A DNA stretch of 64,000 nucleotides from Patescibacteria group bacterium UBA4787 (GCA_002402995.1 DHGX01000001.1:85625-149624), one strand, 5' to 3'. Shown: positions 5,877-50,501, counted from the first letter of the stretch. Notes: a model not told the origin generated them from the sequence alone. Numbers and translations are program-made.

Positions 5877-6236
5877 ATGGGACTAACCCAAGAAATCGGC
5901 CGTCGTGGGGAAAACGAGGCGGTTGATTTTTTAAAAAAGAAAAAATATAAAATAATTGGACGCAACTTCCGCACGTCTAAATTTGGCGAAATTGATATTA
6001 TTGCCGAAAACAATAACCAGCTGATTTTCGTGGAAGTTAAAGCGAAAACAAATTATAACTTCGGGGCCCCAGAAGAAGAATTCACGCGATATAAAAAGAA
6101 AAAAATGCGACGCGCTATTCAAGATTATTTTTGGGCCAAAAAGTTAGAAACCGAAAATTGGCGTATTGATTTGGTTGCCGTCGATTTTCTACGAGATAGA
6201 ACGGAAATTCGCCAACATACTATTTATCAAGATTAA
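5877..6236 (+). CDS. yraN: YraN-family (UPF0102) PD-(D/E)xK endonuclease-like protein
   Basis: GRRGENEAVDFL...GEIDIIAE...VEVKAK pattern typical of YraN. Confidence 0.75.
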   Translation: MGLTQEIGRRGENEAVDFLKKKKYKIIGRNFRTSKFGEIDIIAENNNQLIFVEVKAKTNYNFGAPEEEFTRYKKKKMRRAIQDYFWAKKLETENWRIDLVAVDFLRDRTEIRQHTIYQD

Positions 6237-6257
6237 GATTTTATTTTCCATCGCCAC

Positions 6258-6287
6258 TTGACAAAAAGCCTTAATTTTAAGTAAAAT
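6258..6287 (+). promoter_or_regulatory. Sigma70-like promoter (TTGACA, about 18 nt spacer, TAAAAT) upstream of the ARC ATPase gene
   Basis: cTTGACAaaaagccttaattttaagTAAAAT; followed by the GTTCTTTAAA leader motif at about 6333. Confidence 0.5.
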
Positions 6288-6369
6288 TAGATTGTCTTCT
6301 ATTTTAAGACAGAATAAAAATAAAATAGTTCTTTAAATAAAAAATCAAAATGGGAAAGGAGGGTGTAAA

Positions 6370-8094
6370 ATGCCCGAAACCTTGAAACAGCGTCTGCAGA
6401 AGTGGATTCGCGACGAGGGTAGTTCAATCGATAAACTGGTCGAGTTTATTCAGCAGGAAATCAACGCGGTTATCCAGGAAAAGATCAAGCAGGTCGGAGC
6501 TTTAGTCGAGAAACTAAAGAATAGCGAAAATGCGCGACTCGATTTATTTGAGAAGTTCCAGGAACTAGTGAAGCGCTACAAGAATCTGAAAGAGCCGCCT
6601 TCAAGCTATGGCCGTGTTTTAGACAAACAGAGCGAACACGATCGTCTATTAAATCAAGACACTAAAACCGTAACCATTATCACTGCCGAAGGACGGATTA
6701 TGAAGGTTTTAGCCGAATCCGATGAGCTGTATAACAGGTTAAAATTCGGCGACAGCGTAGTAATAAACGCTAACGGCAACATTACGGCCTGCGGCTCGTT
6801 CCTCGGTAATGGTAGAACTGCGACCATCGAAATTGTCCTTGATGCGCGCCGGGCCCTGATCAATACGGGTACGGATCACAAAGAGGAGGTTTATTTGGTC
6901 CCTGGTTTCGCCAGTTTGAAATCTGGTGACGTGGTGGTTTACGATCCGTATTCGCACTTCGTTCTGGAGAAGATTCCGAAGGACGCCAATTTGAGCGAAC
7001 TGGAGCTGGAAAAGGTTCCGAACATTTCTTTGGACGACATCGGCGGTTTGCCGGAACAGAAAAGCACTATTGCTTTTAATATCTTGTCGCCGTTGGTTTA
7101 TCCCGAGATTTTCCAGAAACAGAAGCTCGAAATGTCCAAGGGCGCGATTTTGATCGGCCCTCCGGGCTGCGGCAAGACCATGATGGCCAAAGCGATCGCT
7201 CACGAACTGACGATGCATATGCGGGAAAAGCTCAAGAACCCAACGGCTATGGGCTGCTTCCTTTATGTGCGCGGTCCGGAACTTTCCGCCTGGTTGGTCG
7301 GTATGACCGAGTACAAGCTGCGCGAATTGTTCAAGAAAGCGGTGGAGAAAGCCAAGGAAACTGGTATTCCAACCGTCATTTACATTGACGAGGTGGAATC
7401 TTTTTTGAGGACGCGTGGAACAGGGATCTCTTCTGATGTGAAGGACGATTACGTGACCCAATTTAACTCTTTGGTTGACGGCCTTGACGAGACCGGCGGT
7501 CTGGTGTTTGTGCTGGCAGCCTCTAATCGTCCGGACATGATCGACCCGGCTGTGATGCGCGAAGGCCGACTTGACCTGAAGGTGATGGTCAGCCGTCCGA
7601 CACGCACAGAGCATGCCGAGGACATCCTGCGCAAGTATTTGACTTCGGATCTTTATTTCGACAAGTGTCACGAGAATGACGATAAGACGGTCTTGGTCAA
7701 CGAGTGGATCAAGAAAATCGCCAACTTCATTTTCGCGGACACGGAAGAGACGGAGTTCATGCGAGTGGACTATGTTGACGGCACAAACGAGGTTCTGTAT
7801 TTCCGGCATTTCGTTTCCGGCGCATTACTGAAAGCAATCGTCGATGAGGCGAAGCGCAAAGCTATCCGGCGGGAAATGGAAAAGCGCGGTGACTGTGGCT
7901 TAACGATAGACGACTTCTTGTCGGCTACAACGGAAAAGTTCTGCCAGAATAAACATCTGATTGACAAAGATGCTCTGCGGCAGGAATTCATTCTGCGGCC
8001 GGGCAAGACCGTTGAGAAGGTCATCAGCCTCGTGGAAACCAAGGAGGTGGAGAAGGAGCGCGGTGGTCTGAATGTTGACAGTGATGCTGTGTAA
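6370..8094 (+). CDS. arc: Proteasome-associated AAA+ ATPase (ARC/Mpa-type)
   Basis: N-terminal coiled coil, a middle OB-like region, and a AAA module with Walker A GPPGCGKT, Walker B IYIDEVE and a second region of homology. It lies adjacent to pup, dop and prcBA genes. The C-terminus ends ...DSDAV and has no GQYL/HbYX motif. Confidence 0.8.
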   Translation: MPETLKQRLQKWIRDEGSSIDKLVEFIQQEINAVIQEKIKQVGALVEKLKNSENARLDLFEKFQELVKRYKNLKEPPSSYGRVLDKQSEHDRLLNQDTKTVTIITAEGRIMKVLAESDELYNRLKFGDSVVINANGNITACGSFLGNGRTATIEIVLDARRALINTGTDHKEEVYLVPGFASLKSGDVVVYDPYSHFVLEKIPKDANLSELELEKVPNISLDDIGGLPEQKSTIAFNILSPLVYPEIFQKQKLEMSKGAILIGPPGCGKTMMAKAIAHELTMHMREKLKNPTAMGCFLYVRGPELSAWLVGMTEYKLRELFKKAVEKAKETGIPTVIYIDEVESFLRTRGTGISSDVKDDYVTQFNSLVDGLDETGGLVFVLAASNRPDMIDPAVMREGRLDLKVMVSRPTRTEHAEDILRKYLTSDLYFDKCHENDDKTVLVNEWIKKIANFIFADTEETEFMRVDYVDGTNEVLYFRHFVSGALLKAIVDEAKRKAIRREMEKRGDCGLTIDDFLSATTEKFCQNKHLIDKDALRQEFILRPGKTVEKVISLVETKEVEKERGGLNVDSDAV

Positions 8095-8102
8095 ATCAAT
8101 CC

Positions 8103-8136
8103 AGAGGGGAGCTCAAGCTTCCCTCTTTTATTTATT
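8103..8136 (+). terminator. Rho-independent terminator after arc
   Basis: agaggggagctcaagcttccctc hairpin followed by TTTTATTTATTT. Confidence 0.6.
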
Positions 8137-8216
8137 TAATTAATTTTTTATTGACCAATGCACCTCGGCTTATTTTATCAAAAATAACGACTGTTGATAA
8201 AAACTTCTAAATGGGG

Positions 8217-8246
8217 TTGACAAATTGGGTTTTTTACAACTATAAT
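8217..8246 (+). promoter_or_regulatory. Promoter (TTGACA, 18 nt spacer, TATAAT) upstream of the dop-like gene
   Basis: gTTGACAaattgggttttttacaacTATAAT; leader motif CGTTCTTTAAA at 8269-8279; strong SD AAAGGGGG before the ATG at 8298. Confidence 0.6.
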
Positions 8247-8297
8247 TAAGTATTAAAAAATTAAATATCGTTCTTTAAAAAGAAAGGGGGTAACTCA

Positions 8298-9869
8298 ATG
8301 AGAATCCCAAAAGTTTTTGGCATAGAAACCGAATGGTCTGTTCGTGTTCGAACGCGCAATAGCGTCAGGTTAGCTAACGCCAAAGAATTCGGCGTATTAA
8401 TAAAATTTATACGCGAATTTTTTACTTTGACCAACACCAGACAAGATTCCCAATGGGAGGCTTGTTCGGTTGATGCTGACCGCGAGTTAGAGCAAGAAAT
8501 AGATCTGCGGCATATCGAGAGTGTTGGTTATCTACCGAACGGCGCTCGTTTATATGTCGACTGGCCGCATTTGGAATATTCAACGCCCGAATGTCAGACG
8601 ATTCGTGATTTAATCGCCGCTGACCAAGCTGGCAATTGGCTGCTTAATATGGCCGCCAAAAAAGCCAGTCAACTCTTGAAAAGAGAGATTATAATTATCA
8701 AAGATAATTCCGATCGCAAAGGCGTTTCTTATGCCAGCCACGAGAATTATTCTTTGCAGCCCAGAACATTTAAGGCCATGATCGACCGACAGAACAGCGA
8801 AGCTCGCGATTTGATTTTGCCGTTTTTGGTAACGCGTCAAATTTTGGCCGGAGCCGGCAAAGTTGGTTCCGAAGCTAATAATTTGAGATCTGCAGATTAC
8901 GGCGAAACAAATTTTCAGATTTCGCAACGCGCAGATTTTATCAATGAAATTATCGGTATCGCCACTACGTCGCCGCGCAATCTGATCAACAGGCGCGATG
9001 AACCACATGCTGATTCTGATCTCTGCCGGCGATTGCATGTTATTATTGGTGATGCCAATTTCTGCGATTGGTCTTATTTTTTGCGCGTTGGAACCTACGC
9101 TCTGGTTTTGCGCATGCTGGAAGATTGCTTTATCGGCAATTCGCCAGTTTGTGTCGACAACCACTGGCTCGAAGCGCTTTATCAGACCTCGCGAGATTTG
9201 ACATGCAAGAAGAAGTTGCAGATTGGCACGGCTAGTCAATCACAGATGAATCCGATCGAGATTCAGCGTTGGTATCTTGGCTTAGTCAAGGAATATCTTG
9301 CCGAGTTTAAAGGCAGCGCCGAAGATCATGAGGTTTGTGAAAAATGGGAATATGTTTTAAACGCTCTGGACAACGACCCGAACCAATTGTTCGGCGTCTT
9401 GGACTGGGTAACAAAGAAATGTATTCTTGATCAATATCTTCAACACCAAGGCTTGCTTTGGCAGGATTCTCGGCTCCGTGTAATCGACATAGCTTACCAC
9501 AATATTAGCGATGAGGCTGGTCTTTATTATCAATTTTTAAAAAAAGGGAAAATCCAGAAATTGATTAATAACGAGTTGTTAATGGATAGGGTTCATAATC
9601 CTCCCGTTGACACACGCGCCTATTTGCGCGGAAAGATCGCTCGGCTTTATCCTGAGTTTGTGGAAGATTGGGAGATAATTTCCAATCGCATGCCAAGTAG
9701 ATTTCGTAAGGAACAGTTGGATTCGTTAAGGGTTATCCTAGAAGAAAAACACATTATTACTTTGGGTAACCCGGTTTTAACGCGAGAAGAGAGCGAAGAA
9801 ATTTTCAAACAAATTATTAATCTTTTGAAATCATGGAAAGGAGGAAGCGAAGATGTTAACACGACTTGA
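8298..9869 (+). CDS. dop: Pup ligase/deamidase family protein, Dop-like (candidate Pup deamidase/depupylase)
   Basis: FGIETEW start motif and NGARLYVD.P..EYSTPEC. SHENYS, LPFLVTRQILAGAGKV, INRRDEPHAD, RRLHVIIGDAN and NPPVDTRAYLRG are all PafA/Dop signatures. It has the longest insertion of the three paralogs between GIETE and NGARLY and a C-terminal extension, which is Dop-like. Confidence 0.75.
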   Translation: MRIPKVFGIETEWSVRVRTRNSVRLANAKEFGVLIKFIREFFTLTNTRQDSQWEACSVDADRELEQEIDLRHIESVGYLPNGARLYVDWPHLEYSTPECQTIRDLIAADQAGNWLLNMAAKKASQLLKREIIIIKDNSDRKGVSYASHENYSLQPRTFKAMIDRQNSEARDLILPFLVTRQILAGAGKVGSEANNLRSADYGETNFQISQRADFINEIIGIATTSPRNLINRRDEPHADSDLCRRLHVIIGDANFCDWSYFLRVGTYALVLRMLEDCFIGNSPVCVDNHWLEALYQTSRDLTCKKKLQIGTASQSQMNPIEIQRWYLGLVKEYLAEFKGSAEDHEVCEKWEYVLNALDNDPNQLFGVLDWVTKKCILDQYLQHQGLLWQDSRLRVIDIAYHNISDEAGLYYQFLKKGKIQKLINNELLMDRVHNPPVDTRAYLRGKIARLYPEFVEDWEIISNRMPSRFRKEQLDSLRVILEEKHIITLGNPVLTREESEEIFKQIINLLKSWKGGSEDVNTT

Positions 9870-10602
9870 GTTGACTTGGCGATTAATGGATGAGCTAATC
9901 GCTCAATTCCTGAAATTGCCGAGCGCGATAGGACAGAGCGACTTTAAACTGGAAGAGTATTTACAGCAATCCCATCTTCACGGTACCACCGTCCTCGCTC
10001 TGAAATATCAGGGTGGAGTGCTGTTAGGTGGAGACGGTCGGGCTTCCGGCATGGATTTCCGTATTTTTACGGACAAAACTCCGAAGGTTTATCCGGTTTC
10101 CGAGTCGACTGCTTACGGTCTTTCTGGGGACGCTCATCTGGGTATTGAGGTGGGAAAGATCTTGGCTTTGACGCTTAAGAATTACGAGAAGAAAGAGTTT
10201 CGAGCCATGAGTTTTGTCGCTCAAACCAAGATGTTGGCTAAAATGATCGAGCGTTTACTGCCAATGGCTATGCAGGGCCGTATCGTGATGCCGATTTTCG
10301 TGTCATGTCAGGAAATCTGCACGATTTATCCGAATGGCATGGTGGTAAGGGGAGATGAAGGTTATGGTGGAATTGGTTCGGGTAGTCCTCACGCCATTCA
10401 TCGCATCAAGGCTCGTTTGGCTGATAACCCCAATCCAGATAAAACCAGGGCGATAGAAATTATACTCGAAGCTTTTGCGGAAGCTCATAAGAGTGATGCC
10501 GCAACCGGCTCTAATTTGCTGATTTATAGTCTGGAAGAGTCGGGAATCGCTATCGTTCGCAACGATGTCGGAAACGGACCGTTTTCGATGAACCTGTTGT
10601 AA
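9853..10602 (+). CDS. prcB: 20S proteasome beta subunit (PrcB) with propeptide
   Basis: The propeptide is followed by the active-site HG/TTVLALKYQGGVLLGGDGR, which matches the mycobacterial TTIVALKYPGGVVMAGDRR. The GIGSGS and AATGS motifs are present. The start overlaps the dop end by 17 nt and is preceded by GGAAAGGAGG. Confidence 0.85.
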   Translation: MLTRLELTWRLMDELIAQFLKLPSAIGQSDFKLEEYLQQSHLHGTTVLALKYQGGVLLGGDGRASGMDFRIFTDKTPKVYPVSESTAYGLSGDAHLGIEVGKILALTLKNYEKKEFRAMSFVAQTKMLAKMIERLLPMAMQGRIVMPIFVSCQEICTIYPNGMVVRGDEGYGGIGSGSPHAIHRIKARLADNPNPDKTRAIEIILEAFAEAHKSDAATGSNLLIYSLEESGIAIVRNDVGNGPFSMNLL

Positions 10603-10617
10603 TCGTGAGGTGAAATA

Positions 10618-11322
10618 ATGGCTGATAAATTGGATCTCATTGCCAACGACAAAGATAATGCCTTGCCGGTTATCGCAGTCAGCACCAAAGACGGCATACT
10701 TCTTGTCGCAATTAATTTTTCCATTAGTCCGGAGGATTCCGATACCTACATCCACAAACTTTCAGAGATCCATGACAATATCGGCATGGGCGCTTGTGGC
10801 AATAGCAGCGAGTATGATCCGCTGCGCAGGCAGTTTATCGACGTCGTTGATAGGCTTGCCTACGAGTTGTCCAAGGACGATATTGTCTTGAAGAGTCTGG
10901 CCAATAGTTTGGCCGGAGAGTTGCGCGATGTATATCGCAATCCCCGTCTGGTTCCTCGTGTGGTCTTCTTCGTCTTGGTGGAATGTCAGGAAGATTCGAA
11001 GCGGGATCGTTTCGTCCGGATCGGTCTCGACGGCAAGTTCAAGATCTTTAATAATTTCACGGTGATCGGCGGCAACGACAAAGAGGTTGGCGCTCTAATG
11101 GATAACCTCAGGTCCGTCGAATTTTTGGAGATGGACTGGCCGACCGCTTTAACCGCGATCAAGGAAGCGATAAAGAAAACCAACATCGCCCGGATCGCTG
11201 GCGCAAAGAAATCGGACAAGACCGTCGAACCGTTCCCATCCCTGGAGCTGGCAATTCTCTGGCGTGGAAGAACTGGCAGAAAATGGCAGCTTTTGCCGCA
11301 TCAAATTAAGGAGGTGAAATAA
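10618..11322 (+). CDS. prcA: 20S proteasome alpha subunit (PrcA)
   Basis: VIAVSTKDGILLVA, KLSEIHDNIGMGACGNSSEYDPLRR and VIGGNDKE align with PrcA segments. It follows prcB. Confidence 0.75.
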   Translation: MADKLDLIANDKDNALPVIAVSTKDGILLVAINFSISPEDSDTYIHKLSEIHDNIGMGACGNSSEYDPLRRQFIDVVDRLAYELSKDDIVLKSLANSLAGELRDVYRNPRLVPRVVFFVLVECQEDSKRDRFVRIGLDGKFKIFNNFTVIGGNDKEVGALMDNLRSVEFLEMDWPTALTAIKEAIKKTNIARIAGAKKSDKTVEPFPSLELAILWRGRTGRKWQLLPHQIKEVK

Positions 11323-11323
11323 A

Positions 11324-11527
11324 ATGCTTAAAAAGCAGTTTCTATTCTTAACCCCAGACGAGCAAGAAAAAAAGGAGACTGAAAAACATCCTCTGGGGCC
11401 CAAGCCCGGCGGACCTGGCTCCGGTAAGAAGGCAGACAAAAATGATGATAACATCGATGACATCCTTGATGACATCATCGAACGGAATAAGCGGGTTAAT
11501 GAAACTGACGAGCGAGAGGGTCAGTAA
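11324..11527 (+). CDS. pup: Prokaryotic ubiquitin-like protein Pup (67 aa, C-terminal -EGQ)
   Basis: Small acidic, disordered protein whose C-terminal half DDNIDDILDDIIERNKRVNETDEREGQ resembles the Pup helix plus the terminal G-Q. Strong SD AAGGAGGTG. Located between prcA and a pafA-like gene. Confidence 0.6.
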   Translation: MLKKQFLFLTPDEQEKKETEKHPLGPKPGGPGSGKKADKNDDNIDDILDDIIERNKRVNETDEREGQ

Positions 11528-11535
11528 TATTTAAT

Positions 11536-11568
11536 CCCCGCACTTTAAAATAGTGCGGGGATTTTTTT
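11536..11568 (+). terminator. Rho-independent terminator after pup
   Basis: ccccgcactttaaaatagtgcgggg hairpin followed by ATTTTTTTAT. Confidence 0.7.
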
Positions 11569-11673
11569 ATAATCGCAATGAGCGAGGCAGCAGAAATTTT
11601 ATTTTTAGATTGCCGGACAGGTCAGATTATATATTGAAGAGAGGCATAGTTCTCCTCTTCTTCTATTTTAATT

Positions 11674-11708
11674 TGACAAATCATCAAAAAAAGATAAGAT
11701 TTATATAA
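11674..11708 (+). promoter_or_regulatory. Promoter (TTGACAAAT-type) upstream of pafA-like paralog 2
   Basis: tTTGACAaatcatcaaaaaaagaTAAGATttatataag; GTTCCTTAAAA leader variant at about 11725. Confidence 0.45.
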
Positions 11709-11755
11709 GAAAAATAATAATGTTGTTCCTTAAAATTATTCAAGGAGAGAATAAA

Positions 11756-13285
11756 ATGAAGAAGAGAATTATTGGGATAGAGAATGAATATCGGATTCAG
11801 GCTCTGCCCGGATTCGATAAAAGCAGATACAAGGTTTATTTTCGGGGATTGAAAATAAGCTTGAATCAGTTTCTATCCAACGGAGCGAGGTTTTATTTGG
11901 ATTTTCCGAGCGAACTGCCGGAGTATTGCACGCCGGAAGTTACGACCATCCGTGAAGTTCTGGCGCATGAACGCGCCGGAGATTATATTGTCTGGGAGAG
12001 CCTGAAAGACATGATGGAAATTTTTAGGCGGAATACCAGTCAGCCAGGTCTCTTTTACAAATATCTGGCAAGTGGTTGTCATGAGAACTATCTTTTTTAT
12101 CTTGATGAAGCTATCAAGTCAACTGCGAATATCTACCCGCAGATGAGCGGCCACATCTTGGCAAGATTGGTGGCTTTTTTGGGGCCCTTCTTGGTCTCTC
12201 GACAGATTTTTTGCGGCGCTGGTTGGTGGTTAACAAATGAAGATGGGCGAAGTTATTTTAATATTTCGCAGCGCGCCCATTTTATGAAGCGTGATTACGG
12301 CGGAGACACGATGCAGAATAGGGCGATTATCAATTCTCGGAATGAATCATTGTGTTCGTCGAGCAATTATTCTCGTCTTCATCTCATTGTTGGCGACTCC
12401 AATATGAGCGATCTCTCTGGTTTTCTCAAGCTCGGCACCACGTCTATCGTTTTAAGGATGATCGAAGCAGGCTTCTTTGATCCACAAGACATTGTTCTAG
12501 TTGATCCGGTTGCGGCTATCGCTGTCATTTCCGATGATTTGAGCTGTAAGGCGACTGTCCAGGCCGGCGGTTTGCATCGTTCGCTTTCAGCCATTGACAT
12601 CCAAGAGTGGTATCTTAATAAAGCTCGTGAATTTTTTGAATGTCGAGAAGTATCCGAAGAGGAGAAGGAGGTTATAAAATATTGGCAGGAAGTTTTGGAC
12701 AAACTGCGCCGAGACCCCATGCTTCTCAAAGAGGAGATCGACTGGGTGATCAAATATAATTTGATTTGCCGTTATGCTGAAAAACACGGTGTTGATCTCG
12801 ATCATTGTTCGGACGAGGAGAGTGAAGCGCTGAGAGTCATTGACACTCATTATCATTCTCTAAATCCGGAGAGAGGTTTGTACCACAAGCTTCTCGGCGC
12901 TGGGAAGATCGCCAAGCTTATTAGTGATAAAGAGGTGGCTTTGGCAATAAAATCTCCACCGACTGATACGCGAGCCAAAGTCCGTGGTGACTTCATTTCT
13001 TTCATCCTGAAAAATCATGCGGATTTGGTTAGGTATTTCATCGTCAATTGGGACGCTATTCGTTATAATTATCGTGCTAATGGATTTTCTAGGCTGATCC
13101 ACGAATTTCAACCTAATCAAGACGATGAATCGGTGAAAGCCTGTGTTTTCAATCTCGGCGATCCGTTTCTTTCAACAGAAACTTGCAACAACTTCCAAGT
13201 ATTGGTTGAAGAGATTGAGTCTCACCAAGAATTTTTCAAATCTATGATACCAACTCCGTCTCCTGACCATCGCGATTATGAATAG
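11756..13285 (+). CDS. pafA: Pup ligase family protein, PafA-like (paralog 2)
   Basis: IGIENEY, NGARFYLDFP.ELPEYCTPE, GCHENYL, RLHLIVGDSNMSD, LKLGTTSIVLRMIE, EIDWVIKYNL, PPTDTRAKVRG. Start chosen at MKKRII with SD AAGGAGAG. The GIENE-to-NGARFY spacing is short, which is PafA-like. Confidence 0.8.
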   Translation: MKKRIIGIENEYRIQALPGFDKSRYKVYFRGLKISLNQFLSNGARFYLDFPSELPEYCTPEVTTIREVLAHERAGDYIVWESLKDMMEIFRRNTSQPGLFYKYLASGCHENYLFYLDEAIKSTANIYPQMSGHILARLVAFLGPFLVSRQIFCGAGWWLTNEDGRSYFNISQRAHFMKRDYGGDTMQNRAIINSRNESLCSSSNYSRLHLIVGDSNMSDLSGFLKLGTTSIVLRMIEAGFFDPQDIVLVDPVAAIAVISDDLSCKATVQAGGLHRSLSAIDIQEWYLNKAREFFECREVSEEEKEVIKYWQEVLDKLRRDPMLLKEEIDWVIKYNLICRYAEKHGVDLDHCSDEESEALRVIDTHYHSLNPERGLYHKLLGAGKIAKLISDKEVALAIKSPPTDTRAKVRGDFISFILKNHADLVRYFIVNWDAIRYNYRANGFSRLIHEFQPNQDDESVKACVFNLGDPFLSTETCNNFQVLVEEIESHQEFFKSMIPTPSPDHRDYE

Positions 13286-13326
13286 TCCCGTTCTGGCTGA
13301 TTGAAATCCCCATTTTATTTTTATTA

Positions 13327-13356
13327 ACGCTCCTAAATAATTAGGAGCGTTTTAAA
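13327..13356 (+). terminator. Terminator after pafA-like paralog 2
   Basis: gctcctaaataattaggagcg hairpin followed by TTTTAAATTT. Confidence 0.55.
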
Positions 13357-13357
13357 T

Positions 13358-13386
13358 TTGACAAATTATCAAAAAACGCTAAGCTT
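13358..13386 (+). promoter_or_regulatory. Promoter (TTGACAAAT-type) upstream of pafA-like paralog 3
   Basis: tTTGACAaattatcaaaaaacgcTAAGCT; CGTTCTTTACAAAGAAGGG leader nearly identical to the dop leader. Confidence 0.45.
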
Positions 13387-13430
13387 TAAATAATAAAATT
13401 AAAATCGTTCTTTACAAAGAAGGGAATAAA

Positions 13431-14900
13431 ATGCAAAAACGCATTTATGGTTTGGAGACTGAGTATAGGTGGTGGAGTTCCTTGCCGGAGAAAAACCCCG
13501 ATAATCCGAGTCAGGTTTTTTCCGGATATCATTTGAATACTATAGTCAATTACTATCCGGGTAATTATTCTGGCTTTTTGCCAAACGGCGCTAGGTTTTA
13601 TGTGGACATGGTTCGGTTTCCAGAGTTCTCAACTCCGGAATGTGCGAGTGTTAGAGATGCCGTGATTTGGGATAAGGCAGGGGAAAAAATAGTTTTCGAT
13701 TGTTTGGGCGGCGCTGTTGTCATCCGAAAAAGAAATTTAGGCAGCAACGGAAAAGTACAGGGTTGCCACGAGAATTATTTGATCGATCGCCAGGTCTTAT
13801 TGAAAGATCGCGACATCTCTCTCGGTCATGTCCATTTGGTCGAACGAGACTTTAATTATTTGGCCGATCGTCTAATTCCTTTTTTGGTGACGCGCCAGGT
13901 TTTCTGCGGCACCGGCGCCATTATGGAGTTCCCACAAATTCAGATAGGGGAAAATCCTTCAACTCAGTGTTTATATCGCTATGTCATTTCACAGCGAGCT
14001 TTCAGAATCGAGCATTTAATCCACGCCGAGACTACTAATAATCGGCCGATCATTAACATGCGCAATGAGCCTCTGTGCGGTGGCGACGAGAGATATTTCC
14101 GCCTGCATCTGATTCTGGGTGATTCTAATCTTTCAGAGTTTTCGACTTTCTTGAAATTGGGTACTACTGGCATAATCTTGCGGATGATTGAGGCTGATTT
14201 TTTAGACACAACCAGTATTGCTCTGCTTGATCCATTAGCAGCTCTTCGGCAAGTCGCGATAGATCCGACTTGCAAAAAAAGGCTAGACTTGGTTGATCAA
14301 CGTCAGTTTTCAGCTATCGACATTCAACAGTGGTATCTCGACAAAGCCAATAAGTTCTTCCAGCGCAACGAAGCTTCAGAAGAGGAAAAAGAAGTGATTG
14401 AGCGTTGGCAAGAAACGTTGGACAAACTGCGCCGAGACCCCATGCTTCTCAAAGAGGAGATCGACTGGGTGATCAAGCTCAACGCTTTGATAAGATATTG
14501 CGAATCTCGCAATTTATCTTTTGACAGCGAAGAAGCAAGGCGTCTTGACGTGGCTTATCATGATCTTGATCCGGATAATTCTCTCTACTTAAAACTTCTT
14601 AAACGTGGTCGCGTCAAGAGGTTAGTTGCCGAGGAAGAGATCGAGAACGCCATTGTTAATCCGCCCGATACGCGCGCCAAAATTAGAGGTTCTGTTATAC
14701 TGGCAATCAACGATTATATTAATCGTTCGTCTATTGGCCGTGATCGCGGCATCTTAATAAACTGGGATTTGGTTTCTGTGTATGCTTCTACGATTCCTCC
14801 TACCACTACTTCTGATAAGATAATAACACTAAGCGATCCTTTCGCGGTGGAAAATTCGGAAATCCAGGCTCTAGTCAACCAATTAAATGCTACACTTTAA
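13431..14900 (+). CDS. pafA: Pup ligase family protein, PafA-like (paralog 3)
   Basis: YGLETEY, NGARFYVD...FPEFSTPEC, GCHENYL, LIPFLVTRQVFCGTGA, RLHLILGDSNLSE, LKLGTTGIILRMIE, EIDWVIKLNAL and PPDTRAKIRG. Confidence 0.8.
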   Translation: MQKRIYGLETEYRWWSSLPEKNPDNPSQVFSGYHLNTIVNYYPGNYSGFLPNGARFYVDMVRFPEFSTPECASVRDAVIWDKAGEKIVFDCLGGAVVIRKRNLGSNGKVQGCHENYLIDRQVLLKDRDISLGHVHLVERDFNYLADRLIPFLVTRQVFCGTGAIMEFPQIQIGENPSTQCLYRYVISQRAFRIEHLIHAETTNNRPIINMRNEPLCGGDERYFRLHLILGDSNLSEFSTFLKLGTTGIILRMIEADFLDTTSIALLDPLAALRQVAIDPTCKKRLDLVDQRQFSAIDIQQWYLDKANKFFQRNEASEEEKEVIERWQETLDKLRRDPMLLKEEIDWVIKLNALIRYCESRNLSFDSEEARRLDVAYHDLDPDNSLYLKLLKRGRVKRLVAEEEIENAIVNPPDTRAKIRGSVILAINDYINRSSIGRDRGILINWDLVSVYASTIPPTTTSDKIITLSDPFAVENSEIQALVNQLNATL

Positions 14901-14934
14901 CCCCTACTATAAAACAGTAGGGGTTTTTATTTTA
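14901..14934 (+). terminator. Rho-independent terminator after paralog 3
   Basis: cccctactataaaacagtagggg followed by TTTTTATTTT. Confidence 0.7.
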
Positions 14935-14953
14935 ATTATCCCCACTTACAACT

Positions 14954-14982
14954 TGATTTTTTCGCCATTTTATATTATAATG
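14954..14982 (+). promoter_or_regulatory. Candidate promoter for nusA (TTGATT ... TATTATAAT)
   Basis: cTTGATTttttcgccattttaTATTATAAT, followed by the palindrome GACTAATtagtgatgATTAGTC (14993-15014). Confidence 0.4.
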
Positions 14983-15041
14983 TATTTAACGTGACTAATT
15001 AGTGATGATTAGTCATTTTTAATTTTCTAAATTTTTGAGAT

Positions 15042-16415
15042 ATGGAAATGTCAATTATTGAGGCGATTGAGCAAATTTGCTTAGAGAAAAGTCTTTCCAA
15101 AGAAAAAGTTTTAGAAGCAATTGAACAGGCTTTAGCTGCTGCTTATCGCAAAGACTTTGGAGAAAAAAACCAAAATATAAAAGTTGAGTTCAATCCGGTG
15201 AACGGAGCGATGAAAATCTTCGACATAAAAACGGTTGTCGAAGATTCTTTATTGGAAGAATTTCAGAAAGAGATGGAAGAAGGCGAATCTGAAGAAGCGC
15301 CCAGTTCGGAAATTGCATCTGAAGGAGAAAAAGAGAAGAAGCGTTTTAATCCTAGAACAGACATCGCCTTAACTGAAGCGCGCAGAATTAAAAAAAGCAT
15401 GAAACAGGGAGATGAAATAAAAATAGAGCTGTCTTTACCTGAGGATTTCGGACGCGTGGCTGCGCAAACCGCCAAGCAAGTTATTATTCAGAGATTGCGA
15501 GAAGCCGAGCGGCAGAATATTTTTGACACATTTAAAGATCAGGAAGGTAAGGTTCTTAACGGGGTTATCCAGCGTCGAGAAAACAATAATTTATTTGTCG
15601 TTGACTTGAACGGTACGGCAGCGGTTTTGCCTCCGTCTGAACAGGTGCGCGAAGAGAAATATTATCCTGGGCAGAAATTAAGATTTTATATCGCAACGGT
15701 AAATATGACGCCACGCGGTCCGGAGATTATAACATCTCGTCGACACAGCGAAATCGTGAAAGAACTTTTCCGTTTGGAAATACCGGAAATTAACAGTGGC
15801 GTCGTAGAGATAAAAGGCATCGCCCGCGAGGCTGGTTTACGTAGTAAGGTGGCAGTTATTAGCAATGACGAAAATATTGACCCGATTGGTTCTTGTATTG
15901 GGCAAAAAGGCGTTCGCATTCAAACAATTATTAACGAATTAAACGGCGAAAAAATAGATATTATCGAATACTCGGAAGACGCAGCTAAATTTATCGGCAA
16001 TGCTCTATCTCCGGCCAAGGTTACCTCGGTTGTTTTAAATGAACAAGAAAAAAAGACTATTGTTTCTGTTAAAGAAAATCAATTTTCTTTAGCTATCGGT
16101 CGTGATGGCCAGAATGTCCGCTTGGCAGCCCGTTTAACTGGTTGGGCTATTGAAGTTGTTAAAGATGGCGAAACGTTTGGCGAAGGCGTAAGCGCCAATC
16201 AAGAAGGAGAATTACAGGGTGGAGAAACCGGCGAACCGATAACAGAAATTGAAGCTGAACAACTCGGTGAAGAGGAAAAAACCAAAGAAGAATCTGTTCC
16301 GGAATTAGTCGAAGAATTAAAAGAAGAAATGTCTTCAGAAACGATAGGCGGAGAAATAGTGGCCGGCGCTGGCGAAGAGGTTGTTGAAGAAACCCCCGGA
16401 AAATTAGAAGAATAA
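15042..16415 (+). CDS. nusA: Transcription termination/antitermination factor NusA with acidic C-terminal tail
   Basis: N-terminal NusA domain (EAIEQICLEKSLSKEKVLEAIEQAL), S1 (GKVLNGVIQRRENNNLFVVDL), tandem KH (IGSCIGQKGVRIQ and AIGRDGQNVRLAARLTGW) and a Glu-rich tail. Confidence 0.85.
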   Translation: MEMSIIEAIEQICLEKSLSKEKVLEAIEQALAAAYRKDFGEKNQNIKVEFNPVNGAMKIFDIKTVVEDSLLEEFQKEMEEGESEEAPSSEIASEGEKEKKRFNPRTDIALTEARRIKKSMKQGDEIKIELSLPEDFGRVAAQTAKQVIIQRLREAERQNIFDTFKDQEGKVLNGVIQRRENNNLFVVDLNGTAAVLPPSEQVREEKYYPGQKLRFYIATVNMTPRGPEIITSRRHSEIVKELFRLEIPEINSGVVEIKGIAREAGLRSKVAVISNDENIDPIGSCIGQKGVRIQTIINELNGEKIDIIEYSEDAAKFIGNALSPAKVTSVVLNEQEKKTIVSVKENQFSLAIGRDGQNVRLAARLTGWAIEVVKDGETFGEGVSANQEGELQGGETGEPITEIEAEQLGEEEKTKEESVPELVEELKEEMSSETIGGEIVAGAGEEVVEETPGKLEE

Positions 16416-16542: not shown

Positions 16543-17769
16543 ATGCCTCAGGAAAAGAAAATAGAAAAATTTTCCAAAGACAATGAAGCTTTAATTAAGC
16601 TAGAAGTTTTTGATCCCGTCGTAGAATTGCAGAATATCAAAAAATTGTCCAAGGATGAACGACTAAAAGTTTTTCAAGAATACAAAGAAAAACTCATCGA
16701 GCAAAAAGAAAATTTAGCCAAAACGCAAGAAGCGCTTACGGCTTTAGTTCGATTCAATCCGGACAGGCCGCTGGAGGAATTGATAGAAAAAGCGCAACAA
16801 TTGGGCGACAAATTCGGTTTTTCTGAAGAACAAATGGAAACGATTAAATCAAATTTAAGACAATATTCTAAAAGACATAGTTTGGTCAAAGAGTTAAGAC
16901 AAAAATTTCCCAAAGACAACGAATTATTCAAGGCTTTATTTGGCCGTGAACCAAAAGGACGAATTGAAGTAATCGCCGGGCCGATAACTTTATATTTCCG
17001 TTGCCATGACATTAATGATTACGCCTATCTTTATATATATGGCTTTCTTAGAAAAGAAGAACCAACCATTGAACAAATAAATTTAGTTCAAAAAACCGGT
17101 GGTGCTAAATTAACTTTTGTTATCGGGATAAAAGATGAAATTAAGCAGCAACTTGCTTCTACAGATTTAATTGGCATTGAAAATGCTTCGATAAGACACG
17201 AATTTACTGATAAACAGAAAGGAATATTAGCTCACGAAGAGCAACACGCCATAAATTCTTTATTGTTCCCGTCAGAATATAATACTTATTATGTTTATTT
17301 GGATCTATTGGAAGCAAAAACCAAAACAGAGAAAGAGCTGGCGCTTAAAAGATATTTTAGGTTTTTGCGGGAAACCTACGACACTAGAGCCAAAAGCGAG
17401 ATTGTTGCTTATTTTAAAGAGGGCCGTCCCGTGGACCACGTATATGATTCATTAATTCGTCCGATTGAGGACGATGGTTTTTATGACTATTTTCCAAAAA
17501 ATCAACAAAAAGAATTAGTAGAACAAATTTTTAAAGGTTCGGTGGAACAAACCCCGGAGCTGAAACAAATGATCAATGATATGGTCCAAGAAATTTTCGC
17601 GAGAGAATATCACCAGACTATTAAAAGTGGTCTTAATGCTTTTGCGTCTTTACGCGATATGGGATATTCTTTGGAACAAACTATCGCTTTGTTCCAACAA
17701 GAGCCATTAACTAAGTGGCCCAAATTAGCTAAACGATTTATGGATCAATATGGTGGACAAAATAAATAA
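16543..17769 (+). CDS. Hypothetical protein with HExxH motif (tandem paralog 1)
   Basis: About 400 aa; AHEEQHAINS motif; paralogous to the next gene (shared FDPV.EL.NIK, NPD.PL.EL and PL.KWPK). Confidence 0.5.
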   Translation: MPQEKKIEKFSKDNEALIKLEVFDPVVELQNIKKLSKDERLKVFQEYKEKLIEQKENLAKTQEALTALVRFNPDRPLEELIEKAQQLGDKFGFSEEQMETIKSNLRQYSKRHSLVKELRQKFPKDNELFKALFGREPKGRIEVIAGPITLYFRCHDINDYAYLYIYGFLRKEEPTIEQINLVQKTGGAKLTFVIGIKDEIKQQLASTDLIGIENASIRHEFTDKQKGILAHEEQHAINSLLFPSEYNTYYVYLDLLEAKTKTEKELALKRYFRFLRETYDTRAKSEIVAYFKEGRPVDHVYDSLIRPIEDDGFYDYFPKNQQKELVEQIFKGSVEQTPELKQMINDMVQEIFAREYHQTIKSGLNAFASLRDMGYSLEQTIALFQQEPLTKWPKLAKRFMDQYGGQNK

Positions 17770-18955
17770 AAATTTCGAGACATCGGGAAAAGAGAAAAAT
17801 GAATCAAAAATCTTTGATCCGGTTTTAGAGTTGGAAAATATTAAACAAATCGAGGATCACGCTGAACGCCATGAGAAAATTAAAGAATACAAAGCAAAAT
17901 TAACGGAGCAAAAAGAGAGAATAGCCACCATGCAAGATTTGTTAATTAATTTTATTCGCCAAAACCCCGATATTCCACTCGACGAATTGTTGCAAAAATT
18001 AGAAAAAATGGGCAAAAATCTTAATTTAGCGGATTGGCAGACTGAGATCGGCAGAAAAATTTTGACTGAATACAATCGCCGTCATAATTTAATCAAAGAA
18101 TTGAAAGGGCAATATCCGGACGAACAAGAATTATTTTATTTTCTATTCGGCTGGAAACCGGAAGGAAAAATTGAATTTGTTGAAGGCCCCATAACCTTAA
18201 GTATTATTTGCCACGGATCTCGTGATTACGATAAGCTTCATTTCACTAACGGCGAATACCAAATAGGAGAAATTGAAATTACGAAGGAAGGATTAAAAGA
18301 AAGCACGAAGTCAGGGGGCTGTCATCTACACGGCTTAAAAGAACCATATAATGACTTAGTAAACATATTGAGGACAGATGTCGATAATTTTGACAACCTT
18401 CTAAATCACGAGGAACGGCATGCTATTTATAGTTTGTTCTCAGAAGTTTTCATAAAAGAAATAAACTGTTTATTCTTTGAGAAAGATTCTTCGCTTGAAG
18501 AAAATTTCGGTATCATAAGGAAATATGTGCGCGAACGCTGTTCTTTAGAAGAGGATGGGGCGGCAGACGAGATATTGGCATTTTTAAATGAGAGCGGGTG
18601 GTTCCCGCCAGAAGAAATTTTTGAATTATTAATTGAACCAGACGGTTTATATAATTTCACTGATTTAAGCAATATAGATCTGGTTAAGGAATGTTATGAT
18701 GAACTTAGAGGGAGTCTTAAATTGCCGCCGTCAGAAGATTTAAAAAGGAAGATTGAGAATATAGTTACAGAAATTTGGGTAAATGATTTTCAGAAACATA
18801 TTCAGGAGGGTATAAGGGCCTTTATGCTTTTAAAAGATTTGAATTTTTCTAACGAAGAAACGATGGCTTTTTTGTCAATCGAACCATTAGCCAAATGGCC
18901 CAAGGCGGTTAATCGTTTAATTGAACAGCGTCAGCTTAAGGGTAAATTAAATTAA
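17750..18955 (+). CDS. Hypothetical protein with HExxH motif (tandem paralog 2)
   Basis: About 400 aa; NHEERHAIYS motif; collinear similarity to 16543..17769. Confidence 0.5.
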   Translation: MVDKINKNFETSGKEKNESKIFDPVLELENIKQIEDHAERHEKIKEYKAKLTEQKERIATMQDLLINFIRQNPDIPLDELLQKLEKMGKNLNLADWQTEIGRKILTEYNRRHNLIKELKGQYPDEQELFYFLFGWKPEGKIEFVEGPITLSIICHGSRDYDKLHFTNGEYQIGEIEITKEGLKESTKSGGCHLHGLKEPYNDLVNILRTDVDNFDNLLNHEERHAIYSLFSEVFIKEINCLFFEKDSSLEENFGIIRKYVRERCSLEEDGAADEILAFLNESGWFPPEEIFELLIEPDGLYNFTDLSNIDLVKECYDELRGSLKLPPSEDLKRKIENIVTEIWVNDFQKHIQEGIRAFMLLKDLNFSNEETMAFLSIEPLAKWPKAVNRLIEQRQLKGKLN

Positions 18956-47541: not shown

Positions 47542-47670
47542 AGTATTGTTAATTTATATAGCCAAGTTCTTTAAAAATTTATTTTTTAGTTCAAACCACT
47601 ACAAAAATTCTTAAATTTTTTGTAGTTGCAAATTTTGAGTTTTGTAAATTTTTAGTATCAAATTTTTGTT

Positions 47671-49193
<1,523 letters not shown>

Positions 49194-50156: not shown

Positions 50157-50201
50157 ATGGTTGATAATCTTGATTTATAAATAATTTATGAAATTAAAAA
50201 A

Positions 50202-50273
50202 TGCCGGAGGTCAGAATCGAACTGACAACGCAAGGATTTTCAGTCCTTCGCTCTACCACTGAGCTACTCCGGC
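50202..50273 (-). tRNA. tRNA-Phe (anticodon GAA)
   Basis: The reverse complement GCCGGAGTAGCTCAGTGGTAGAGCGAAGGACTGAAAATCCTTGCGTTGTCAGTTCGATTCTGACCTCCGGCA gives a canonical cloverleaf. Confidence 0.9.
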
Positions 50274-50363
50274 AAATAAATATGTATTTTGTTAATGGGC
50301 ATTTAGTCCACCAGCTGGTGGAGAACCCTAGTCCTCTTCCGCCTGCCCCGTTAAATTTCTGAA

Positions 50364-50434: not shown

Positions 50435-50501
50435 AAGATTAATTTAACGGGGTGGATAAAGGAAGCTTAATCCCTTTATAATACCCATTATTTTTTTAAA
50501 G

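What the first reader, a model, noticed from the sequence alone, without database searches (positions are those of the whole stretch)
8298..14900. Three PafA/Dop-family paralogs in one locus (one Dop-like, two PafA-like)
Known systems have one Dop and one PafA. Here 8298..9869 has the longest insertion between the N-terminal GIETE and NGARLY motifs, plus a 50-aa C-terminal tail, so it is Dop-like. 11756..13285 and 13431..14900 have short spacing, so they are PafA-like. The two PafA-like genes share long identical peptide stretches (EEEKEVI.YWQEVLDKLRRDPMLLKEEIDWVIK). A duplicated ligase could indicate substrate or Pup-variant specialisation, or a regulatory pseudo-enzyme.
Basis: inference. Interest (0 to 1): 0.7.

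Follow-up and report, generated by a model that had tools for sequence, protein, structure and literature searches.

The report
Pup-proteasome locus with extra ligase genes
An uncultured Patescibacteria bacterium carries a protein-tagging (Pup-proteasome-like) gene cluster with one eraser-type enzyme and two intact, separately transcribed ligase-type genes (three in its closest relatives), whereas every studied system is described as having a single ligase.

Summary
Genes at 8298-9869 (A), 11756-13285 (B) and 13431-14900 (C) are all full-length Pup-ligase/deamidase family members. They sit in the cluster mpa-like ATPase | A-prcB-prcA-modifier (67 aa, ending EGQ) | B | C.

A is Dop-like. It has a shortened Dop-loop that keeps the key Trp, Dop-type spacing after the catalytic Asp, and the Dop gene position. 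B and C lack the loop and belong to a well-supported CPR clade of PafA-position genes.

New findings:
- The closest relatives carry a third ligase paralog (M) between B and C. The window's B-C spacer matches their B-M spacer up to the ribosome-binding site, so M appears to have been deleted here.
- Each ligase gene has its own promoter-like site and terminator.
- All copies keep the catalytic motifs and are under purifying selection (dN/dS 0.04-0.16).
- A roughly 180-nt internal tract is homogenised among paralogs by gene conversion. It includes a 59-nt exact repeat in the window.
- Segments homologous to PafA's substrate-contact loops are the most divergent.
- The other 78 loci surveyed hold no more than one Dop-type plus one PafA-type gene.

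The most likely reading is several Pup ligases with different targets or regulation. Enzyme direction is untested. This is a new variant of a known system.

The parts
6370..8094 (+). Mpa/ARC-like proteasomal AAA+ ATPase. It has its own promoter-like site (6258-6287) and a terminator-like hairpin (8103-8126).
   Evidence: Pfam AAA and Prot_ATP_ID_OB_C. NCBIfam TIGR03689 pup_AAA scores 367 bits, below the 505 cut-off. Promoter and terminator scan.
8217..8246 (+). Promoter-like site (TTGACA-18-TATAAT, 12 of 12 matches) ahead of the A-prcB-prcA-modifier operon.
8298..9869 (+). Paralog A, a Dop-like (deamidase/depupylase-type) family member of 523 aa. Its 3' end overlaps prcB by 17 nt.
   Evidence: PF03136 E 2e-117. 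Insertion with a conserved Trp aligned to Dop-loop W47. YVD+2+H.EYSTPE, SQRADF and RDEPHAD motifs match Dop. It lies in the CPR A-type clade with bootstrap 100. dN/dS is 0.11-0.13.
9853..10602 (+). Proteasome beta subunit (PrcB-like), with a propeptide and a Thr after HG|TTV.
   Evidence: Pfam Proteasome and TIGR03690, 107 bits. Sequence.
10618..11322 (+). Proteasome alpha subunit (PrcA-like).
   Evidence: Pfam Proteasome and TIGR03691, 79 bits.
11324..11527 (+). Pup/UBact-like modifier gene of 67 aa, with an acidic C-terminal half ending ...DEREGQ. A strong terminator-like hairpin follows at 11533-11563.
   Evidence: It is conserved in relatives (...DDREGQ, and ...DDKEGE in a single-ligase lineage) and always lies directly upstream of the first ligase gene. 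It is the only plausible ORF in the window that ends in G[EQ]. No Pfam or NCBIfam model matches it. Terminator.
11673..11700 (+). Promoter-like site (TTGACA-16-TAAGAT) for paralog B. It is the first copy of the repeated promoter segment 11666-11727.
   Evidence: (D2)
11756..13285 (+). Paralog B, a PafA-like (loop-less) family member of 509 aa. It is monocistronic, with a terminator-like hairpin at 13326-13351.
   Evidence: PF03136 E 9e-106. No Dop-loop; YLD, EIDWVIK and DPF motifs. CPR P-type clade. dN/dS 0.08-0.09. AF2 model mean pLDDT 81, pTM 0.87.
12575..12753 (+). Gene-conversion tract, copy in B. Its core is the 59-nt exact repeat at 12695-12753.
13286..13430 (+). B-C spacer, with a terminator hairpin (13326-13351) and a promoter-like TTGACA-16-TAAGCT (13358-13385). 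It is collinear with the B-M spacer of relatives as far as the shared 5'UTR at about 13402-13433, which marks the junction left by loss of the middle paralog M.
13431..14900 (+). Paralog C, a PafA-like (loop-less) family member of 489 aa. It is monocistronic, with a terminator-like hairpin at 14899-14925.
   Evidence: PF03136 E 6e-112. It aligns end to end with C. glutamicum PafA, residues 9-471. CPR P-type clade. dN/dS 0.14-0.16. AF2 model mean pLDDT 82.5, pTM 0.89.
14298..14476 (+). Gene-conversion tract, copy in C. Its core is the 59-nt exact repeat at 14418-14476.

Best explanation
This is the chromosomal Pup-proteasome-type tagging locus of a Patescibacteria (CPR) bacterium in which the ligase gene has multiplied. 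What the sequence shows: an Mpa-like ATPase gene; an operon of the Dop-like paralog A, the 20S beta and alpha subunits and a 67-aa modifier ending in Gln; then two loop-less PafA-like genes (B and C), each with its own promoter-like site and terminator. B and C descend from two old, lineage-specific duplications that gave three ligase-type genes (B, M, C). The window's genome has lost M through a deletion between the repeated 5'UTRs. All copies keep the catalytic residues and are under purifying selection. Proposed mechanism (inferred): A deamidates the modifier's terminal Gln to Glu and removes the tag from proteins. B and C each use ATP to phosphorylate that Glu and join it to lysines of target proteins, which the ATPase then feeds to the proteasome. 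The two ligases differ in which proteins they accept and/or when they are expressed, because the segments that contact substrates in actinobacterial PafA are the parts that have diverged. One internal module is kept the same in all copies by gene conversion, presumably because it serves a shared partner.
For: All parts of the locus are present. A is Dop-like: its loop Trp aligns with W47, and its motifs match Dop. B, M and C form a clade (bootstrap 93.5) inside a CPR P-type clade (99.5), separate from the A-type clade (100). Relatives L001 and L002/L016 carry A+B+M+C in the same order. The window's B-C spacer matches their B-M spacer up to the ribosome-binding site. GxExE, NGxR, the catalytic Asp, HENY, SQR, RLH and the C-domain Trp are intact in A, B and C. 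dN/dS between orthologues is 0.04-0.16 for every paralog. Each ligase gene has its own TTGACA-N16-TAAG.T site and a flanking hairpin terminator. Conversion tract: 4-7 differences in 171 nt among B, M and C of L002, against 45-60% identity in the flanks, and a 59-nt exact repeat in the window. Genome-specific RRDP versus RQDP appears in all copies. Segments homologous to the PafA substrate contacts (hinge, beta3/4 loop, extended loop, CTD; bioRxiv 10.64898/2026.04.10.717840, PMC10465538) are 12% identical across paralogs against 35% elsewhere (Fisher p 2.5e-7), with more indels and fixed differences. There is only one modifier gene.
Against: No activity is known for any CPR family member. B and C fall below the NCBIfam PafA cut-off and score equally on the Dop model. 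Their alpha-loop lacks the PafA signature (H188, W190, E191, S194-A196), and the EPHAD motif has become E[SP]LC. Hecht et al. show that loss of the Dop-loop alone does not make a ligase. C has Dop-like V before the catalytic Asp and Glu at two Dop-specific alpha-loop positions, and its AF2 alpha-loop is not helical. The divergent segments are surface loops, which also vary more between orthologues (0.51 against 0.69 conserved), so the enrichment could reflect relaxed constraint rather than specialisation. The loss of M rests on a single assembly of this genome. Other assemblies break inside the repeat.
Confidence: 0.55

Rival explanations
1. B and C are redundant isozymes. Both are ordinary ligases with the same target range, kept as separate transcription units only for dosage or for differential expression under different conditions.
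For: Each has its own promoter-like site and terminator. The window lineage tolerated the loss of the third copy, M. Loop divergence may simply be relaxed constraint, because ortholog conservation is also lower there.
Against: B and C are only 42% identical, with paralog-specific indels that are conserved among orthologues in the beta3/4 loop, the hinge and the CTD. dN/dS of 0.08-0.16 shows that each diverged sequence is itself being maintained. The positively charged PafA substrate-site residues (Cglu R218, R442/K444) differ between the paralogs.
Confidence: 0.2
2. The direction of catalysis has split. One loop-less paralog (C is the better candidate) acts as a hydrolase or trans-pupylase, that is, a second depupylase or deamidase, while B is the ligase.
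For: Dop without its loop remains a depupylase, and the alpha-loop conformation decides direction (PMC7947786). C has YVD, STPE and Glu at the positions of Dop E210 and E216. AF2 predicts a non-helical alpha-loop in C (pLDDT 81-87) but a helix in B (pLDDT 47-74). C's best PDB sequence and fold matches are Dop entries.
Against: A and B are also closer to Acidothermus Dop than to C. glutamicum PafA by sequence, so that measure does not discriminate. C nests inside the P-type clade and shares EIDWVIK, TRAK and DPF with PafAs. The Foldseek TM-scores to Dop and PafA are almost equal, 0.79-0.80 against 0.74-0.79. The AF2 secondary structure was not calibrated on a known PafA.
Confidence: 0.13
3. The paralogs work together as hetero-oligomers, in a mixed ligase complex or with one copy acting as adaptor or regulator. 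The homogenised tract would be the shared interface.
For: M. smegmatis PafA forms active dimers, and HDX shows that residues 303-324 of C. glutamicum PafA change on the dimer-monomer transition (PMC12053664). That stretch lies inside the conversion tract, which maps to Cglu 285-353. Iyer et al. 2008 proposed heterodimers of family paralogs.
Against: The genes are separate transcription units rather than co-translated partners. The array works with either two or three copies. All copies keep full catalytic sets, which a pure adaptor would not need. There is no direct evidence on where the interface lies.
Confidence: 0.08
4. The array is an assembly or binning artefact: collapsed or chimeric paralogs from mixed strains, not a real gene array.
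For: Independent short-read assemblies break exactly inside the 59-nt repeat. The B-C junction of this genome is seen in only one assembly.
Against: Collinear arrays (A..B-M-C-nusA) occur in at least three separately assembled contigs from different samples (L001/L015, L002, L016). In the window, both halves of B are B-type and both halves of C are C-type. The paralogs are only 42-56% identical, far too different to be strain variants.
Confidence: 0.04

Closest known systems
Actinobacterial Pup-proteasome system (Mpa, Dop, Pup, PrcB, PrcA, PafA) of Mycobacterium, Corynebacterium and Acidothermus
   Same: The same set of parts is present: an Mpa-like AAA ATPase, 20S beta and alpha subunits, a small acidic modifier ending in G-Q, one loop-bearing Dop-type enzyme and loop-less PafA-type enzymes of the PF03136 fold with the same catalytic motifs. 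A terminal Gln implies a deamidation step, as in mycobacteria.
   Different: There are two ligase-type genes here and three in the relatives, whereas PafA is described as the sole ligase (PMC10465538, PMC12053664). The modifier gene lies after prcA and directly before the ligases, not between dop and prcB (compare L100). The modifier is not recognised by the Pup HMM. The Dop-loop is about 15 aa shorter and lacks the SPLRDARGF stretch. The PafA-specific alpha-loop and the Arg substrate sites are not conserved. All components score below the curated equivalog cut-offs.
UBact-type systems of Gram-negative and candidate phyla (Lehmann et al. 2017, BBRC; recalled from memory, the paper is not in the searchable library)
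   Same: Both are non-actinobacterial loci with Mpa, Dop, PrcB/A and PafA homologues plus a short modifier that ends in G-[EQ] preceded by a basic residue (here R-E-G-Q and K-E-G-E). As I recall, CPR phyla were among the reported hosts.
   Different: No UBact or Pup model in NCBIfam or Pfam matches this modifier, even at E<=10. As far as I know, no UBact description mentions more than one PafA homologue per locus. I could not check that paper's text.
Single-ligase CPR loci (L003, L006/L099, L007, L095)
   Same: They share the synteny A-type - prcB - prcA - small G[EQ] ORF - P-type - nusA, and the A-type and P-type clades are shared with the window.
   Different: They have exactly one P-type gene between the modifier gene and nusA, whereas the window lineage has two or three. 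A second, independent tandem P-type pair is seen only on L012.
Eukaryotic E3 ubiquitin-ligase diversification (analogy only)
   Same: The idea is shared: one modifier and one degradation machine are served by several ligases that differ on their substrate-facing surfaces.
   Different: The folds and the chemistry are unrelated. PafA-type enzymes activate and ligate in a single polypeptide. Only two or three paralogs are involved, and specialisation is not demonstrated.

Membership tests
Pup-ligase/deamidase family (Pfam PF03136, carboxylate-amine ligase fold) | Full-length, significant match to the family profile and fold | tested here: met
   A, B and C match at E 2e-117, 9e-106 and 6e-112, well above the 25-bit cut-off. 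The AF2 model of C matches Dop and PafA crystal structures at TM 0.74-0.80.
Pup-ligase/deamidase family (Pfam PF03136, carboxylate-amine ligase fold) | GhExE nucleotide motif, NGxR, catalytic Asp in YxD, HENY, SQR, NxR, RLH and the C-domain Trp | tested here: met
   All are present in A, B and C. The relatives' paralog M has Lys in place of the Arg equivalent to Cglu R207.
Dop (depupylase/deamidase, NCBIfam TIGR03688) | Dop-loop insertion before strand beta2, with the highly conserved Trp (Acel W47) | tested here: met
   A meets this. Its 67-residue spacing compares with 65-82 in Dop-type and 37-48 in PafA-type genes, and Trp53 aligns with the Dop-loop Trp. The loop is shorter and lacks SPLRDARGF. 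B and C have no such insertion.
Dop (depupylase/deamidase, NCBIfam TIGR03688) | Dop-specific residues flanking the catalytic Asp (V-D-x-x-H with no extra residue; S-x-P) | tested here: met
   A reads YVD-WP-HLEYSTPE, against YVD-HA-HPEYS[AT]PE in Dop (Table 1 of PMC7947786).
Dop (depupylase/deamidase, NCBIfam TIGR03688) | Dop alpha-loop signature (F208, E210, G214, L215, E216, L219, K220) | tested here: inconclusive
   A has SQRADF and the Gly, but Asn, Ala, Ser and Pro at the positions of E210, E216, L219 and K220.
Dop (depupylase/deamidase, NCBIfam TIGR03688) | Score above the curated equivalog cut-off | tested here: not met
   A scores 335 bits against a cut-off of 492. Its score on the PafA model is 315.
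Dop (depupylase/deamidase, NCBIfam TIGR03688) | Deamidase and depupylase activity | not testable with these tools
   This needs biochemistry. A terminal Gln on the modifier makes a deamidase necessary if the chemistry is Pup-like.
PafA (Pup-protein ligase, NCBIfam TIGR03686) | No Dop-loop, and end-to-end colinearity with PafA | tested here: met
   C aligns with Cglu PafA residues 9-471, and B with model positions 1-446. The spacing is 29 and 40 residues.
PafA (Pup-protein ligase, NCBIfam TIGR03686) | PafA-specific alpha-loop residues and helix (H188, W190, E191, S194, S195, A196, R199, S200) | tested here: not met
   B reads HFMKRDYGGDTMQN and C reads FRIEHLIHAETTNN, so neither carries the signature. 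AF2 predicts a helix in B at low confidence and no helix in C.
PafA (Pup-protein ligase, NCBIfam TIGR03686) | L-D-V-G-S (one-residue insertion after the catalytic Asp) and A-T-A | tested here: inconclusive
   B has YLD with two extra residues (FPSEL). C has YVD with one extra residue (MVRF). Both have [CS]TP.
PafA (Pup-protein ligase, NCBIfam TIGR03686) | Score above the curated equivalog cut-off | tested here: not met
   B scores 277 bits and C 315 bits against a cut-off of 551. Their Dop-model scores are 288 and 311.
PafA (Pup-protein ligase, NCBIfam TIGR03686) | Motifs seen in this data set in PafAs but not in Dops (EIDWVIK; C-terminal DPF) | tested here: met
   B and C carry EEIDWVIK and LGDPF/LSDPF. 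Dops have LDWVAK and EPL/DPR, and A has LDWVTK and GNPV. These discriminators are empirical, taken from my own alignment.
PafA (Pup-protein ligase, NCBIfam TIGR03686) | ATP-dependent ligation of Pup-Glu to lysine | not testable with these tools
   This needs biochemistry.
Pup / UBact modifier | A small protein of 50-90 aa ending in G-[EQ], encoded next to a PafA homologue | tested here: met
   The protein is 67 aa and ends ...EREGQ, directly upstream of B. It is conserved in relatives, matching the criteria of Iyer et al. 2008.
Pup / UBact modifier | Match to the Pup (PF05639) or an NCBIfam modifier model | tested here: not met
   No hit at E<=10 in Pfam or NCBIfam.

The most novel reading that the evidence does not exclude
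Within a single clade of loop-less PafA-type enzymes, the direction of catalysis has diverged naturally. B (and M) would write the tag, while C has reverted to, or acquired, amidase or transfer activity. The locus would then encode paired, substrate-specific writers and erasers of a ubiquitin-like tag, and the gene-conversion tract would keep their common modifier-handling module identical. That would be a natural counterpart of the laboratory Dop-to-PafA conversion.
Probability: 0.12. Interest if true: 0.85.

Novelty: new variant of a known kind. Interest (0 to 1): 0.62.

Why it matters
The pupylation field treats PafA as the only ligase and asks how one enzyme can select hundreds of substrates (PMC10465538; bioRxiv 10.64898/2026.04.10.717840). 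A natural system with two or three maintained ligase paralogs would matter for three reasons if the ligase assignment holds:
- The paralogs differ mainly in the loops that contact substrates in PafA. That gives a ready-made comparative set for mapping specificity determinants.
- It would show that bacterial ubiquitin-like tagging can diversify at the ligase level, as eukaryotic E3s do.
- The paralogs could supply new enzymes for pupylation-based proximity labelling.

The locus also documents a Pup-proteasome system with a divergent modifier in Patescibacteria, organisms with very small genomes where keeping three or four paralogs of one enzyme is notable.

Tried and rejected
- NCBIfam equivalog models could not assign Dop versus PafA. 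All three proteins score about equally on both models and fall below both cut-offs.
- PDB sequence and fold searches also fail to discriminate. All three are nearer to Acidothermus Dop by sequence, and the TM-scores to Dop and PafA are nearly equal.
- The deep branching between the CPR clades and the actinobacterial Dop and PafA clades is unsupported (bootstrap 31-45), so orthology to Dop and PafA rests on motifs and synteny, not on the tree.
- The GTDB genome scan returned only 10 loci because the automatic patterns were narrow.
- Literature searches for UBact, Patescibacteria+proteasome+Pup, and multiple PafA found no description of multi-ligase loci. 'PafA2' in annotations is an old name for Dop. 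The UBact paper itself is not in the library.
- Pup-variant specialisation is rejected, because only one G[EQ]-ended small ORF exists in the 64 kb.
- The pseudo-enzyme idea is rejected for B and C.
- I could not establish whether the conversion tract forms the Pup-binding groove.
- The AF2 alpha-loop secondary structure was not calibrated against a known PafA, so I treat it as weak evidence.

Full report
**Observation.** The window holds three complete ORFs at the reported coordinates, and each matches Pfam PF03136 (Pup_ligase) over its whole length: A 8298-9869, B 11756-13285 and C 13431-14900. B and C are 42% identical, A-C 35% and A-B 32%.

**Locus anatomy.** All genes are on the + strand and form four apparent transcription units.
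- Unit 1 is an Mpa/ARC-like AAA ATPase (6370-8094), with a promoter-like site at 6258 and a terminator-like hairpin at 8103.
- Unit 2 follows a perfect TTGACA-18-TATAAT at 8217. It contains A, then prcB (overlapping A by 17 nt), prcA, and a 67-aa ORF ending ...DEREGQ (11324-11527), followed by a 12-bp-stem terminator at 11533.
- Unit 3 is B, between a TTGACA-16-TAAGAT site at 11673 and a hairpin at 13326.
- Unit 4 is C, between a TTGACA-16-TAAGCT site at 13358 and a hairpin at 14899.

nusA, two unknown paralogous genes and trigger factor follow. Upstream lie ftsW, divIC, tspO, PAP2 and PCMT genes, so this is core chromosome and not a mobile element. Database names for near-identical proteins, and the record title of L005, place the organism in the Patescibacteria group. 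The small ORF is the only credible G[EQ]-terminated ORF in the 64 kb. It is conserved in relatives (...DDREGQ, and ...DDKEGE in a single-ligase lineage), but no Pfam or NCBIfam model recognises it.

**Which paralog is which.** In a neighbour-joining tree with 200 bootstraps, A groups with the genes that occupy the same position in other CPR loci (A-type clade, bootstrap 100). B and C, together with a third paralog M from relatives, form a clade (93.5) inside a CPR clade of genes that follow the modifier gene (P-type, 99.5). The links of these clades to actinobacterial Dop and PafA are unsupported (bootstrap 31-45). The curated NCBIfam models do not decide either. I therefore used the discriminators established experimentally by Hecht et al. 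(PMC7947786) and Cui et al. (PMC8599861).

A is Dop-like on these features:
- It has an insertion whose conserved Trp aligns with Dop-loop W47.
- It has the Dop spacing and residues around the catalytic Asp (YVD-xx-H.EYSTPE).
- It has SQRADF and an intact RDEPHAD motif.

B and C are PafA-like on these features:
- They lack the Dop-loop insertion.
- They align end to end with PafA.
- They share EIDWVIK, TRAK and a C-terminal DPF with PafAs rather than with Dops.

However, B and C lack the PafA alpha-loop signature. Their spacing after the catalytic Asp is two residues (B) and one residue (C) longer than in Dop. In both, EPHAD has become E[SP]LC. So 'Dop-like' for A is well supported, while 'PafA-like' for B and C is supported for architecture and clade but not for the residues that determine catalytic direction.

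**Relatives and history.** Two related Patescibacteria contigs, L001/L005/L015 and L002 (collinear with L016), carry four family genes in the order A ... B (509 aa), M (497-498 aa), C (489 aa), nusA. M is sister to B (bootstrap 100). It separated from B before the window lineage split from these relatives, so the window has lost M. The window's B-C spacer aligns along its whole length with the relatives' B-M spacer, including its terminator and promoter-like element. It switches to C only at the 31-nt 5'UTR (AATCGTTCTTTACAAAGGAGGAAATAAAATG) that is repeated in front of M and C. That is the signature of a deletion by recombination between direct repeats. It leaves C behind what was M's promoter.

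A second, independent tandem pair of P-type genes occurs on L012. Its record is labelled Gammaproteobacteria, but its proteins nest in the CPR clades.

The arrangement is rare:
- Of 80 metagenome loci, only L015 and L016 have more than two family genes. All 27 two-gene loci where spacing could be measured pair one long-spacing with one short-spacing gene.
- A profile search of 1.84 billion representative proteins returned the B, C and M clusters at 751-796 bits. The next hit scored 497 bits.
- The neighbours checked had single ligases.
- The literature repeatedly calls PafA the sole ligase.

**Are all copies functional?** GxExE, NGxR, the catalytic Asp, HENY, SQR, the essential Arg of NxR, RLH and the C-domain Trp are intact in A, B and C. 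Nei-Gojobori dN/dS between orthologues is 0.11-0.13 for A, 0.04-0.09 for B, 0.10 for M and 0.14-0.16 for C. These values are similar to mpa and nusA at about 0.09. AF2 models of B and C are confident overall (pTM 0.87 and 0.89) and match Dop and PafA crystal structures. Nothing suggests a degraded gene or a pseudo-enzyme.

**Concerted evolution of one module.** Codon-aligned paralogs are 45-60% identical in DNA over most of their length. Over about 60 codons they are far more similar: in L002 there are only 4-7 differences in 171 nt among B, M and C, and 14-18 in L001. In the window, the 59-nt exact repeat sits within a 179-nt tract that is 77% identical. This tract is 12575-12753 in window B and 14298-14476 in C, and it maps to Cglu PafA residues 285-353. 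Variants are genome-specific rather than paralog-specific (RRDP in both window copies, RQDP in all copies of the relatives). This is gene conversion. Independent short-read assemblies end exactly inside the repeat. The function of this module is unknown. It overlaps a PafA segment (303-324) that changes on dimer-monomer transition, and I could not test whether it lines the modifier-binding groove.

**Where the paralogs differ.** I used the published substrate contacts of C. glutamicum PafA: the hinge and helix alpha1 (site 1), the beta3/4 loop, R137, the extended loop to R218, and CTD R442/K444. The homologous segments are identical across B, M and C at 12% of columns, against 35% elsewhere (Fisher p 2.5e-7). 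They also hold more indels (p 0.004) and more positions that are fixed within orthologues but different in all three paralogs (odds ratio 2.9, p 0.002). These are surface loops that are also less conserved between orthologues, so the result is consistent with substrate specialisation but does not prove it.

**Mechanism and rivals.** Best-supported model (0.55): A deamidates the modifier and removes it from proteins. B and C are both ATP-dependent ligases for the same modifier. They have different target ranges and/or regulation, and they feed the Mpa-like ATPase and the 20S core.
- Rival 1 (0.20): B and C are redundant isozymes that differ only in expression.
- Rival 2 (0.13): a split in catalytic direction, with C as a loop-less amidase or transferase. 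This is suggested by its Dop-like YVD, by two Dop-type Glu residues in the alpha-loop and by a non-helical AF2 alpha-loop, against a low-confidence helix in B.
- Rival 3 (0.08): the paralogs act as hetero-oligomers.
- Rival 4 (0.04): the array is an assembly artefact.

**Comparison and novelty.** The system works like the actinobacterial Pup-proteasome pathway and resembles the UBact-type loci of other phyla (the latter from memory). It differs in five ways:
- the number of ligases;
- the position of the modifier gene, after prcA;
- a modifier that is invisible to current profile models;
- a shortened Dop-loop;
- non-conservation of PafA's alpha-loop and of its Arg substrate sites.

I found no description of a multi-ligase Pup locus in the searchable literature. 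I rate it a new variant of a known kind, with interest 0.62.

**Caveats.** No biochemistry exists for any CPR member. The expanded clade is known from only three or four uncultured genomes. The deep phylogeny is unresolved. The loss of M rests on a single assembly.

Noticed in passing
window 16543-17769 and 17750-18955 (+): Two tandem paralogous genes (34% identical, 408 and 401 aa) have no Pfam family. Both contain an HExxH motif (HEEQH, HEERH), so they may be an undescribed metalloprotease-like pair. They are conserved between nusA and tig in relatives L001 and L002 too.
   Followed up: partly
L001 4743-6236; L002 9986-11497: The third ligase paralog M, absent from the window, has Lys in place of the Arg equivalent to Cglu PafA R207 / Msm R193, whose Ala mutant is inactive. 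It also has a long insertion before GCHENY. It is still under purifying selection (dN/dS 0.10).
   Followed up: partly
L012 3-932 and 1098-1895 (with L008 from the same MAG): A 1.9-kb contig carries the end of one P-type gene and the start of another in tandem (68% identical where they overlap). This is an independent duplication of the ligase gene in a different lineage. The MAG is labelled Gammaproteobacteria, but these proteins nest in the CPR clades.
   Followed up: partly
window 11756-13285 compared with L001/L002 orthologues: Silent-site divergence is uneven along the locus. dS is 1.3-1.4 for B, but 0.32 for A, 0.51 for C and 0.45 for nusA. This suggests recombination with a more distant strain, or faster silent change, in B.
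   Followed up: no
window 6000-16000: The Pup-proteasome cluster has a higher G+C content (0.41-0.47) than most of the flanking chromosome (0.35-0.40). This could reflect horizontal origin or composition constraints.
   Followed up: no
window 6370-8094: The Mpa-like ATPase ends ...GGLNVDSDAV and lacks a GQYL/HbYX-type C-terminal proteasome-docking motif. It is transcribed from its own promoter-like site, apart from the proteasome genes.
   Followed up: no
window 47666-49193 (+) and 50201-50574 (-): A complete 16S rRNA gene stands alone with no adjacent 23S gene. Three tRNA genes (Phe, Val, Ala) follow on the opposite strand.
   Followed up: no
L101 1921-4976: A metagenome contig has two adjacent family genes (491 and 521 aa) followed by a 71-aa ORF, with no proteasome genes nearby. 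It is a proteasome-less PafA/Dop-type pair.
   Followed up: no
window 4048-4686: A protein-L-isoaspartate O-methyltransferase gene (protein repair) lies a few genes upstream of the degradation cluster. The same neighbourhood is conserved in L002 and L096.
   Followed up: no
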